DNA of 64,000 nt from Podarcis melisellensis (lineage: Eukaryota). Where the stretch lies: assembly GCA_964234715.1 (NCBI GenBank), contig OZ174284.1; one strand, given 5' to 3'. The notes beneath the pieces were generated by a model that did not search any database, had not been told where the DNA came from, and saw only the letters and a program-made list of their open reading frames with translations. Position numbers and translations under genes: made by a program. This document shows positions 39,747 through 41,718 of the stretch, piece after piece. Positions within the stretch are counted from its first letter, which is position 1. Each line of letters opens with the position of its first letter.

Positions 39747-41467
39747 GTAAGCATCTGGTGTGTTTTAGCAGTTCTTATTTGAAAATTTGCCTAATAGAAT
39801 GTTCCAATTCTCACAAAGCAAAAAAAAAGGAAATGAAAAAAGCTTCATCCCTGAAAATTCTGGAGTTTTAGGTCTCATAAAATATGGGTCCCTGATATTA
39901 GTATTCTCCTAAAGAATCTTCTCCAGGTGTGTAGGCTCATTCACTTAGCAGAACACTTGATAAAACCAAAGTATTTCCATCCTTTGAAATAACTGTTCTG
40001 AACTGGGATTAAGGGGAAGCACAGAGTTTTGAATGAAAATTCTTTTTTAAAAAATACAAACCTCTGCCTTATACCTAAAATTTCTGGGCTGCTGCATTTA
40101 AGTACCCTACAATAGCTTTGTCAGCTGGTCTGAAACTATGACCAGATAATTGGTTTTAACAGCTCTGTTCTGCTATTTGTTTTGTGAAGGATGCAAGCTA
40201 ACGAGGGAAAAGATGGTCCTTTTTAGTCTGCATCTGCTAGTGCGTGTTTTTAGAATGCAATCTACAGCTATTTCTGAAGTTCTGTTTTCAGAAGTTGTAA
40301 TACCTGAATTTAACAACACAAATTCACATTTGCAAATATCTTGGCCTTTGTGACAATGAAACATTTCCTGCTTTCCAGCCAGTCTAGAAACAATTAATGT
40401 TAGTGGAAAGGGGAGAATATTCAGTGGGAAATGACCAACTTCCTTAACATAGCAGTCTCTTTTCCATATGCTATGATCAACTTTCAATTGGAAAACTGCC
40501 ATATTCTGACTTTTTTGAACAATTGAATTAGTATGCTCCCTTTCAGTTAAGGCTGGAACACCACTGAATCATGGGAAGATGGATAGGGAAGTAAAAAGTG
40601 ATTGATTGGTAAATTTGCATACAATCTGGTTTGTTTGCAGGAAATAATTCTCTGCTTATTGGTAATTTCTGGCTCTTACATATCTCTGATTCATATAGTG
40701 CAGATTTCTGTGAAATGGAAGGGTGCATTGGTTTGATACATCAGAGATAATACACCTCCTACAAATTGATTTTAAAATTAGGATTTATTGAATCTCGCCC
40801 TCTGTGCCTATAACTCAATCTCTCTATATTTCTGAGTATTTTTGCCTGTAGGATGTCCCTCACTATTTCCTGTATCTGCAGTAGGCCTATAAAATGTACT
40901 GCAGGTGAAATGGTAAGTATGTAAAAAGGGCTCTGGTGAGTGGCCTTTGCAGAACATTTTTGAAAAATTAATTTTTAAGAAGCCTTTATTCATAAACACA
41001 GGGTTTTTCATTGCAAGGCTTTGTTTAAAGTGACACTAAACAGAAGTAAATGGAGTGTTACGGGTCAGAGACTAGCTGTGGACTCTTTCCAGTACTAATT
41101 TTTTACAGCAGAGGGCAGGCAGGGATGCTGAAACAAGCCTCATACCTCCTTTCTCACAAGGAGGAAAGGTAAGTGTGTCTAACAAGTATTTGGTTTGTAG
41201 TCTAGCTAGTCTCTTACTTTATTTTTCTCCGTTTATCTTCAACCTGGGATTCAATCATATACCATTATGAGTAAAATCTTCATATGTTCCCCCCGATTCT
41301 GTTCCACTATAATATATATAAATGGTGAACATAAAAACCTTTAACTGTTGGTTCCTCACTTCTTGCAAAGGCCTTGCAATGGAAGACCCATGGGATACGT
41401 TGATGAAACAGAGTGACTGAGGGTGTCCTCCCTCTTCTTTTTGCTTCCACTTCTTCTTTTCTCACAG

Positions 41468-41492
41468 GTCTACCCGTCTACTCCCTTCTGCG
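41468..41492 (+). other. WNK1: Candidate 25-nt alternative micro-exon / alternative acceptor upstream of exon 4
   Basis: About 40 nt polypyrimidine tract ending ctcacag at 41467; consensus donor CG|gtgagt at 41492/41493. Confidence 0.55.
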
Positions 41493-41560
41493 GTGAGTAA
41501 CGCCAGCAGCCTCTGCTCGCTTTGAGACATTTAGAGTCTGAATCGTTCTTTTAATTTAAG

Positions 41561-41718
41561 GTACCCCAGAGTTCATGGCACCCGAGATGTATGAGGAGAA
41601 ATACGATGAATCCGTTGATGTATATGCTTTTGGGATGTGTATGCTTGAGATGGCTACGTCTGAATATCCTTATTCTGAGTGTCAAAATGCTGCACAGATC
41701 TACCGTCGAGTGACCAGC
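41561..41718 (+). CDS. WNK1: WNK1 exon 4 (158 bp), kinase domain
   Basis: tttaag|GT ACC CCA... [53 protein letters not shown]; donor AGC|gtaagt, phase 0. Confidence 0.98.

What the first reader, a model, noticed from the sequence alone, without database searches (positions are those of the whole stretch)
41420..41600. Candidate poison-splicing switch right at the WNK1 activation loop (cryptic acceptor + donor upstream of exon 4)
Seen: 93 nt upstream of exon 4 is a textbook acceptor (about 40-nt pyrimidine tract + ctcacag at 41467) that looks stronger than the real exon 4 acceptor (ttcttttaatttaag). A consensus donor CG|gtgagt follows 25 nt later, leaving only a 68-nt intron to exon 4. The block retains several CpGs although the intron is otherwise CpG-depleted, hinting at constraint. 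Outcome 1: acceptor alone adds GLPVYSLLR then TGA at 41494-41496 (401-aa protein ending just after the activation loop). Outcome 2: the 25-nt micro-exon spliced to exon 4 frameshifts to TGA at 41592-41594. Outcome 3: the micro-exon spliced to exon 6 would be in frame but lack the kinase C-lobe core. Inference: an AS-NMD or kinase-dead switch that would lower long WNK1 only, because KS-WNK1 starts downstream at exon 4a. I have an unverified recollection of a short annotated human WNK1 transcript ending near this point, so it may be conserved rather than new.
Basis: partly seen in the sequence, partly recalled or inferred. Interest (0 to 1): 0.72.

Follow-up and report, generated by a model that had tools for sequence, protein, structure and literature searches.

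The report
Candidate poison splice switch in WNK1
Just before the exon that completes the WNK1 kinase domain, this reptile gene carries a spare splice acceptor far stronger than the real one; using it would add a stop codon and likely send the mRNA for decay, and one matching amphibian transcript model plus a similar layout in four invertebrate WNK genes suggest an old dosage switch, though no RNA examined here shows it in use.

Summary
Observation confirmed at every coordinate. The AG at 41466-67 is the best-scoring acceptor in 144 kb of this squamate WNK1 gene (11.5 bits); the real exon-4 acceptor (TTTAAG) is second weakest of 40 WNK1-4 acceptors (-0.2). Using the spare acceptor, or the 25-nt micro-exon into exon 4 or 5, gives a premature stop with many junctions downstream. 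New support: a caecilian RefSeq WNK1 isoform ends GHPISILR-stop (reptile: GLPVYSLLR-stop), scoring 17 against at most 7 for 153 other tails; four invertebrate WNK genes have the same weak TTTAAG acceptor with a branch-point/tract/CAG unit 46-54 nt upstream, all leading to stops. WNK2/3/4 of this genome lack it. Not shown: use in RNA (the lay was uninformative) and conservation in vertebrate DNA (no orthologous intron obtainable). Best reading: an unproductive alternative 3' splice site coupled to NMD, like SYNGAP1 exon 11 (about 50%); rivals are a decoy exon promoting intron-3 retention and an unused site. Not found in ten literature searches.

The parts
1040..1822 (+). WNK1 exon 1, coding part (ATG 1040)
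   Evidence: best named hits Naja naja 83%, Gekko kuhli 81%, hence a squamate
33286..33458 (+). WNK1 exon 2
39526..39746 (+). WNK1 exon 3, ends in the activation loop (phase-1 intron follows)
41414..41421 (+). possible branch-point region of the spare acceptor (TGAC / CTGAG, only a loose match)
   Evidence: inference
41428..41467 (+). spare 3' splice site: tract of 34/36 pyrimidines with four TCTT motifs, then CAG
41468..41560 (+). 93 nt that the spare acceptor would add to exon 4; 5 CpG; three in-frame stops
41468..41492 (+). 25-nt candidate micro-exon
41493..41498 (+). donor-like GTGAGT; its TGA (41494-41496) is the first in-frame stop
   Evidence: 7 of 9 match to the U1 consensus, as the best real donors of these genes
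41474..41503 (+). predicted hairpin that would cover the donor (-9.2 kcal/mol, z -2.7, window chosen after seeing the fold; whole 93 nt z -1.0)
   Evidence: weak
41555..41560 (+). weak constitutive acceptor TTTAAG; its TAA is a stop in the exon-4 frame
41561..41718 (+). WNK1 exon 4 (TPEFMAPE motif and C-lobe core); frameshift stop TGA at 41592-41594
51875..51961 (+). exon-4a-like ORF (cysteine-rich, followed by GTAAGA): likely start of kidney-specific KS-WNK1
   Evidence: the identity as exon 4a rests on my recollection of its peptide
56155..56243 (+). WNK1 exon 5
57316..57535 (+). WNK1 exon 6

Best explanation
The element is likely a conserved unproductive alternative 3' splice site: a strong spare acceptor sits 93 nt ahead of a weak exon-4 acceptor, and when chosen it would put a stop nine codons in and likely send long-WNK1 mRNA to nonsense-mediated decay. 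Shown: the two acceptors, their strengths, the stops and their distance from downstream junctions (222 and 124 nt to the exon 4/5 junction). Inferred: that the spare acceptor is normally held down (the CU-rich tract with four TCTT motifs would suit PTBP-type binding; untested) and released in some tissue or state; that the main product is the 93-nt extension rather than the micro-exon, because a 68-nt intron is near the lower limit for vertebrate introns (established knowledge) and the caecilian model stops at the Arg-stop instead of splicing at the donor; that the donor mostly helps define the spare acceptor. Any escaping 401-aa protein would lack the APE motif and most of the C-lobe (alignment to PDB 6cn9 ends at residue 194 of 290) and be kinase-dead. 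KS-WNK1 starts downstream and would be spared.
For: Acceptor statistics. Caecilian RefSeq XP_029455793.1 (P0047), found by an exon-1 query blind to the tail, ends GHPISILR-stop; against the reptile GLPVYSLLR-stop it scores 17, next best 7, among 154 distinct non-canonical tails from 456 proteins with the motif; 2 of 19,972 random genomic positions reach 17, so about 0.015 expected among 154; its second residue H is 1 of 154, while 139 of 154 start K/R/E/M/T/N/G as donor read-through predicts. Its sister isoform X1 splices normally into exon 4. Invertebrate WNK loci L010, L011, L015, L016 have TTTAAG at the same intron position and a YTRAY-like/tract/CAG unit 46, 54, 52, 46 nt upstream; all four would end in a premature stop. 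AAG acceptors: 5 of 19 invertebrate exon-4 sites, 0 of 28 other invertebrate sites, 1 of 40 lizard sites (this one); an upstream unit by a fixed rule at 4 of those 5 AAG sites, 0 of the 14 YAG exon-4 sites, 3 of 28 other invertebrate and 3 of 39 other lizard sites. The last 50 intron nt are conserved within the pairs (0.78, 0.68; shuffle maxima 0.58, 0.60; other acceptors of the same pairs 0.52-0.66) although exon third positions are only 40-58% identical.
Against: No RNA shows either site used (laid 0, 3, 1 and 1 records, none over 41437-41560; uninformative). No vertebrate intron DNA could be compared (searches gave none). The caecilian case is one automated model in a gene model that itself ends after exon 4, and a GT-CAY donor read-through is not excluded (a GTC donor occurs at 1 of 18 donors of these genes; 2 of 154 tails start with Q). 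No second vertebrate protein with such a tail among 456. WNK2, WNK3, WNK4 of this genome lack the element and have CAG acceptors, as do 14 of 19 invertebrate exon-4 sites, so ancestry would need repeated loss; the four invertebrate loci are probably two lineages; the counting rule was set after I had seen the cases and misses L016; no invertebrate has the donor, and no sequence upstream of about 8 nt aligns between lizard and invertebrates. WNK1 was absent from five searched NMD/unproductive-splicing supplements, two human-cell sets among them, which hints the event is rare, unregulated or missing in mammals, though several tables were unreadable or may use gene ids.
Confidence: 0.5

Rival explanations
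1. Decoy exon: the acceptor and donor bind U2AF/U1 but are rarely ligated; they engage the intron-3 ends and promote retention of intron 3, lowering WNK1 output by nuclear detention or early termination rather than by NMD.
For: Strong acceptor plus donor in a 1.8-kb intron fits the decoy model (PMC6097662 abstract: conserved cryptic cassettes in >1 kb retained introns, inefficiently spliced). Annotated exon-3 read-through isoforms exist in human, chimp, orang-utan, macaque, bear, bat, beaver, mole-rat. Contigs of two runs guessed to be RNA lie inside intron 3.
Against: The read-through models may be projections of one human model; intron contigs may be pre-mRNA or DNA; invertebrate units have no donor; the caecilian model, if orthologous, shows ligation to the acceptor.
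Confidence: 0.17
2. Unused cryptic site: a pyrimidine-rich stretch with a chance CAG and GTGAGT that is silenced or never defined; the caecilian and invertebrate parallels are coincidence or convergence.
For: Strong unused acceptor-like sites exist in these genes: scores 12.5, 12.4, 11.3 inside WNK4 and WNK2 introns, two next to what look like repeats. No RNA support; paralogs lack it; no literature or supplement hit.
Against: Top site of 144 kb lying 93 nt before the second-weakest acceptor, with a donor (p 0.025) and an outlier tail match (about 0.015 expected) and the TTTAAG association in invertebrates.
Confidence: 0.2
3. A real short protein: the spare acceptor starts a terminal exon (or escapes NMD) and yields a 401-aa kinase-dead WNK1 with the N-terminal region and N-lobe, acting as scaffold or dominant negative.
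For: The caecilian isoform is annotated as a protein and the 8-9 residue tail is similar; poly(A)-signal hexamers lie at 41876 and 43009-43596, behind exon 4.
Against: No AATAAA/ATTAAA between 39747 and exon 4; the exon-4 donor is a consensus GTAAGT, so downstream junctions follow; invertebrate tails are unrelated in sequence.
Confidence: 0.07
4. The tract is the working (distant) branch point/tract of exon 4 itself, with the first AG skipped, or AG|GT at 41467/8 is a recursive splice site.
For: Exon 4's own tract is poor (14 of 20 pyrimidines, AAG); the acceptor is followed directly by GT.
Against: Five other AGs lie between the CAG and exon 4 and scanning would favour the first CAG (established knowledge); exon 4 has its own CTGAA/TTGAG branch-like motifs; the regenerated donor matches U1 at only 4 of 9; the intron is only 1.8 kb; no GT follows the invertebrate acceptors.
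Confidence: 0.06

Closest known systems
SYNGAP1 exon 11 alternative 3' splice site coupled to NMD (PTBP1/2-dependent; PMC10164156, passages read)
   Same: An upstream alternative acceptor extends a constitutive exon of a dose-sensitive gene, adds a premature stop, and lies by CU-rich sequence.
   Different: SYNGAP1 use, cycloheximide sensitivity and PTBP control are shown; here none is. This element also has an internal donor defining a 25-nt micro-exon, and the competing constitutive acceptor is a weak AAG.
Decoy exons of retained introns (SF3B1 intron 4; PMC6097662, abstract read; OGT intron 4 from search listing)
   Same: Cryptic non-coding cassette with real-looking splice sites in an intron over 1 kb.
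   Different: Retention, U2AF binding and conservation were not tested here; this cassette lies only 68 nt from the intron end.
Known WNK1 isoform choices: exon 4a (KS-WNK1), 8b, HSN2, 9, 11, 12, 26, 26a, 26b (PMC3365125, passages read) and the human 393-aa entry F6UYG0
   Same: Same gene; KS-WNK1 and F6UYG0 also remove kinase activity by cutting the transcript near exons 3-4.
   Different: The passages name no exon or acceptor between exons 3 and 4 ('exon 3' 0 occurrences); F6UYG0 reads through the exon-3 donor; KS-WNK1 uses another promoter.

Membership tests
AS-NMD (poison) alternative 3' splice site / poison exon | Functional-looking alternative splice site(s) | tested here: met
AS-NMD (poison) alternative 3' splice site / poison exon | Use creates a stop more than 50-55 nt upstream of a downstream junction | tested here: met
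   222 and 124 nt before the exon 4/5 junction
AS-NMD (poison) alternative 3' splice site / poison exon | The junction is actually made in RNA | tested here: inconclusive
   no coverage; one caecilian RefSeq model with a matching tail
AS-NMD (poison) alternative 3' splice site / poison exon | Isoform rises when NMD is blocked | not testable with these tools
   no such reptile data; WNK1 absent from searched mammalian supplements
AS-NMD (poison) alternative 3' splice site / poison exon | Conserved in orthologues | tested here: inconclusive
   protein-level match in one amphibian; same layout in 4 invertebrate loci; absent in paralogs; no vertebrate DNA
AS-NMD (poison) alternative 3' splice site / poison exon | Inclusion is regulated by tissue or state | not testable with these tools
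   none
Decoy exon of a retained intron | Cryptic cassette in an intron over 1 kb | tested here: met
   intron 3 is 1,814 nt (39747-41560)
Decoy exon of a retained intron | Host intron is retained and retention depends on the cassette | not testable with these tools
   intron contigs cannot tell retention from pre-mRNA or DNA
Recursive splice site | AG directly followed by a usable regenerated donor, in a long intron | tested here: not met
   regenerated donor 4 of 9 U1 matches, real donors 6-7; intron 1.8 kb
Neural (SRRM4-type) protein-coding micro-exon | 3-27 nt and frame-preserving | tested here: not met
   25 nt, shifts the frame into exons 4 and 5; no such entry under the one mouse Wnk1 transcript id that occurs in the MicroExonator table
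Human 393-aa WNK1 isoform (F6UYG0) | Same C-terminal tail / same splice event | tested here: not met
   ends GMFQVYLGA; the same tail class occurs on ORFs that begin inside exon 3 on unspliced contigs

The most novel reading that the evidence does not exclude
WNK genes have kept, since before the protostome-deuterostome split, a splice-site rheostat at the activation-loop intron: a weak TTTAAG acceptor paired with a strong upstream poison acceptor, retained in vertebrate WNK1 and some invertebrate WNKs and lost in WNK2-4, through which cells feed ionic, osmotic or kinase state back on the amount of active WNK.
Probability: 0.15. Interest if true: 0.82.

Novelty: new member of a known kind. Interest (0 to 1): 0.52.

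Why it matters
WNK1 is dose-sensitive (intron-1 deletions cause familial hyperkalaemic hypertension; PMC3365125 passage) and its known isoform choices lie elsewhere. A poison acceptor between exons 3 and 4 would be a way to tune kinase-active L-WNK1 without touching KS-WNK1, i.e. the L/KS ratio, and, if present in mammals, an antisense target in either direction as for SYNGAP1. If the invertebrate layout is homologous, it would be an unusually old unproductive-splicing switch in a signalling kinase rather than a splicing factor. It is directly testable with existing RNA-seq and genome alignments.

Tried and rejected
RNA: no listed holder was on record as RNA; the lay of 40631-41560 on X23, X24 (raw, about 12% of each run read), X1, X5 (contigs) placed 0, 3, 1, 1 records, none over the element, no joints or loose ends; the tool drops human-like reads and contigs silently and the flanking exons were not in the laid stretch, so this is no evidence either way and junction counts stay open. 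Vertebrate intron DNA: none among 80 metagenome loci (best 90-92% identical, invertebrate-like), 7 viral and 80 prokaryote loci. Further tails: searches found no second match and no protein with the frameshifted exon-4 peptide; only the best 120-150 hits and one representative per cluster are listed, and NMD isoforms are seldom filed as proteins. Paralogs: strong AGs in WNK2/WNK4 intron 3 lie 944 and 1,530 nt from exon 4, have no nearby donor and one looks repeat-derived; rejected as equivalents. RNA structure: no significant fold in the 93 nt or in the four invertebrate segments (z -1.1 to +0.6). Reading conservation from shadow ORFs: no long frame spans the element. Literature: searches gave no description of this event (listings only, except papers named below). 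Supplements searched for WNK1: PMC8091538 (0; two files unreadable), PMC10123112, PMC11387194 (0; one PDF unsearchable), PMC11188260 (0; file 13 not searched), PMC8233366 (0; one PDF unsearchable), PMC7821500 (0 by name; one Wnk1-transcript row, a 15-nt micro-exon elsewhere; one file too large), PMC8299563 (2 of 8 rows seen, an event about 34 kb away). Yan et al. 2015 was not held. PMC12129085 passages concern WNK4. Earlier scan findings: none on this element.

Full report
Setting. The window holds the 5' part of WNK1 of a squamate (exon-1 protein 83% to Naja naja, 81% to Gekko kuhli) at G000:C10:57846001-57910000. Exons: 1 (ATG 1040-1822), 2 (33286-33458), 3 (39526-39746), 4 (41561-41718), 5 (56155-56243), 6 (57316-57535); joined they translate without a stop (one search used start and exon-5 limits that were 3 nt off, corrected). 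Intron 3 interrupts the activation loop between SVIG and TPEFMAPE.

Observation. The spare acceptor has 34 of 36 pyrimidines and is the only such YAG on the + strand of the window; the - strand has one with 33. I called 40 acceptors of WNK1-4 in this genome from tblastn hits and built a position matrix (home-made; MaxEntScan is not available). The candidate scores 11.5 bits, the exon-4 acceptor -0.2, second lowest of 40. The candidate ranks first among AGs in 144 kb of WNK1, 4th of 18,162 in the four genes, above all 18,804 antisense AGs; for the other 39 acceptors the best AG 30-130 nt upstream scores at most 5.2. The donor matches U1 at 7 of 9 like the best real donors, and GTRAGT within 60 nt has p about 0.025. 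The CpG excess is mild (10 of 642 tiles as high). So the configuration is unlikely to be chance, though strong unused sites do occur in these genes.

Consequences. Acceptor alone: 401 aa, stop 222 nt before the exon 4/5 junction. Micro-exon to exon 4: 411 aa, stop 124 nt before it. Micro-exon to exon 5: 415 aa. Only micro-exon to exon 6 is in frame. By the 50-55-nt rule (established knowledge) the first three are NMD substrates. A protein cut here aligns to residue 194 of the 290-residue WNK1 kinase construct 6cn9 (done with the caecilian isoform), so lacks APE and most of the C-lobe. An exon-4a-like ORF lies at 51875-51961 (identity recalled), so KS-WNK1, which starts at exon 4a (PMC3365125 passages), would be unaffected.

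The recalled human transcript is another event. UniRef F6UYG0 (393 aa) and ape, macaque, bear, bat and rodent entries end GMF.... Met after Gly is what a GTATG donor gives on read-through, and the same tails appear on ORFs that begin inside exon 3 on contigs. This is inferred from proteins; I saw no human DNA.

A caecilian isoform matches. An exon-1 query limited to 143-457 aa returned Rhinatrema bivittatum RefSeq XP_029455793.1, WNK1-like isoform X2, ending GHPISILR-stop; isoform X1 continues into exon 4. Against the reptile GLPVYSLLR-stop it scores 17; the next best of 153 other distinct non-canonical tails (from 456 proteins with the motif, 273 canonical, duplicates and tails under 3 residues dropped) scores 7, although selected for likeness to the caecilian tail. 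Random genomic positions reach 17 in 2 of 19,972 draws. The terminal Arg-stop is what CG|G TGA encodes, so the donor/stop may be kept too. Caveats: I picked it by eye among 15 tails; it is one automated model in a gene model that ends after exon 4; read-through of a GT-CAY donor is possible; searches gave no second case.

Invertebrate WNK genes show the same layout. The metagenome scan gave no vertebrate locus, but L010, L011, L015 and L016 (animal WNKs; I take them for molluscs from recollection, taxon not determined) end this intron in TTTAAG, as the reptile does, and carry a branch-like motif (CTAAC, CTAAG, CTGAC, CTAAT), a tract and CAG 46, 54, 52 and 46 nt upstream. Three would shift the frame and stop in exon 4, one would stop at the TAA of the acceptor. 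Of 20 animal-like loci examined (duplicate L018, intron-less loci, plants, fungi and protists left out; L025 too short; one mis-called L016 site dropped), AAG ends 5 of 19 exon-4 introns and 0 of 28 other introns; a fixed rule finds an upstream unit at 4 of the 5 AAG sites (L010, L011, L015, L017; it misses L016), 0 of 14 YAG exon-4 sites, 3 of 28 other sites and 3 of 39 other lizard sites. The rule was set after seeing the cases, the matrix alone separates them poorly, and the four loci are probably two lineages. Within the pairs the last 50 intron nt are 78% and 68% identical (shuffle maxima 58%, 60%; other acceptors 52-66%), the next 50 nt not above shuffles, with exon third positions 40-58% identical. 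Beyond about 8 nt nothing aligns to the reptile, and none has the donor. WNK2 (C2), WNK3 (C17) and WNK4 (C13) of this genome have strong CAG acceptors and no such unit. Shared ancestry with loss and convergence both remain open.

RNA. No indexed holder was on record as RNA. The one lay that ran covered 40631-41560 in four runs and placed 0, 3, 1 and 1 records, none over the element. With the flanking exons outside the stretch and human-like records dropped silently, it says nothing about use.

Mechanism. Best reading (0.5): competing acceptors, the strong upstream one normally repressed (four TCTT motifs suggest PTBP-type binding, untested), its use adding 93 nt with a stop and triggering NMD; the donor helps define it or occasionally yields the 25-nt frameshifting micro-exon across a marginal 68-nt intron. 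A hairpin could mask the donor (z -2.7 in a post hoc window). Rivals: decoy for intron-3 retention (0.17), unused site (0.2), real short protein (0.07), distant branch point or recursive site (0.06).

Known systems and novelty. It works like the SYNGAP1 exon-11 alternative acceptor (PMC10164156 passages) and resembles decoy exons (PMC6097662 abstract); membership is not established since use and NMD sensitivity are untested. It fails tests for recursive sites and frame-preserving neural micro-exons. Ten searches and seven supplement sets gave no description; unreadable supplement files, gene-id-only tables, subscription journals and databases such as VastDB could hold it. Verdict: real, statistically unusual, probably functional in some form, a new member of a known kind if confirmed; interest 0.52.

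Noticed in passing
window 51875-51961: Cysteine-rich ORF with a GTAAGA donor in intron 4, likely the reptile KS-WNK1 exon 4a; a kidney-specific start exon in a squamate.
   Followed up: partly
window 989-1039: The frame upstream of the WNK1 ATG is open (ORF 845-1963) and a predicted bird protein aligns from 989: conserved 5' UTR or an N-terminal extension.
   Followed up: no
window 41561-41566: After exon 3-4 joining the junction regenerates a donor-like AG|GTACCC (5 of 9 U1 matches), a possible re-splicing site.
   Followed up: no
L068:3493-3498 and L080: A plant-like and a fungus-like WNK gene also end this same intron in TTTAAG / CTTAAG, in short introns without an obvious upstream unit.
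   Followed up: no
L017:293-354: A fifth invertebrate WNK with an AAG exon-4 acceptor has an upstream tract + TAG 62 nt ahead, followed by GT.
   Followed up: partly
L092:2501-2653: A bacterial MAG (Putridiphycobacter sp.) holds a stretch 67% identical to WNK1 exon 4, far above other bacteria (at most about 51%): contamination or transfer from a eukaryote.
   Followed up: no
L085-L091: Seven viral contigs, five labelled giant-virus MAGs, encode kinases 50-54% identical to WNK1 exon 4.
   Followed up: no
G000:C10 about 57,923,919 and 57,947,366 (outside the window): Two other WNK1 acceptors have a weaker upstream tract + YAG 71 and 73 nt ahead.
   Followed up: no
mouse chr6:119981117-119981132 in PMC7821500 supplement: A 'novel' conserved 15-nt Wnk1 micro-exon there is, by my recollection of the peptide, the 3' end of exon 4a used through an internal acceptor.
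   Followed up: no
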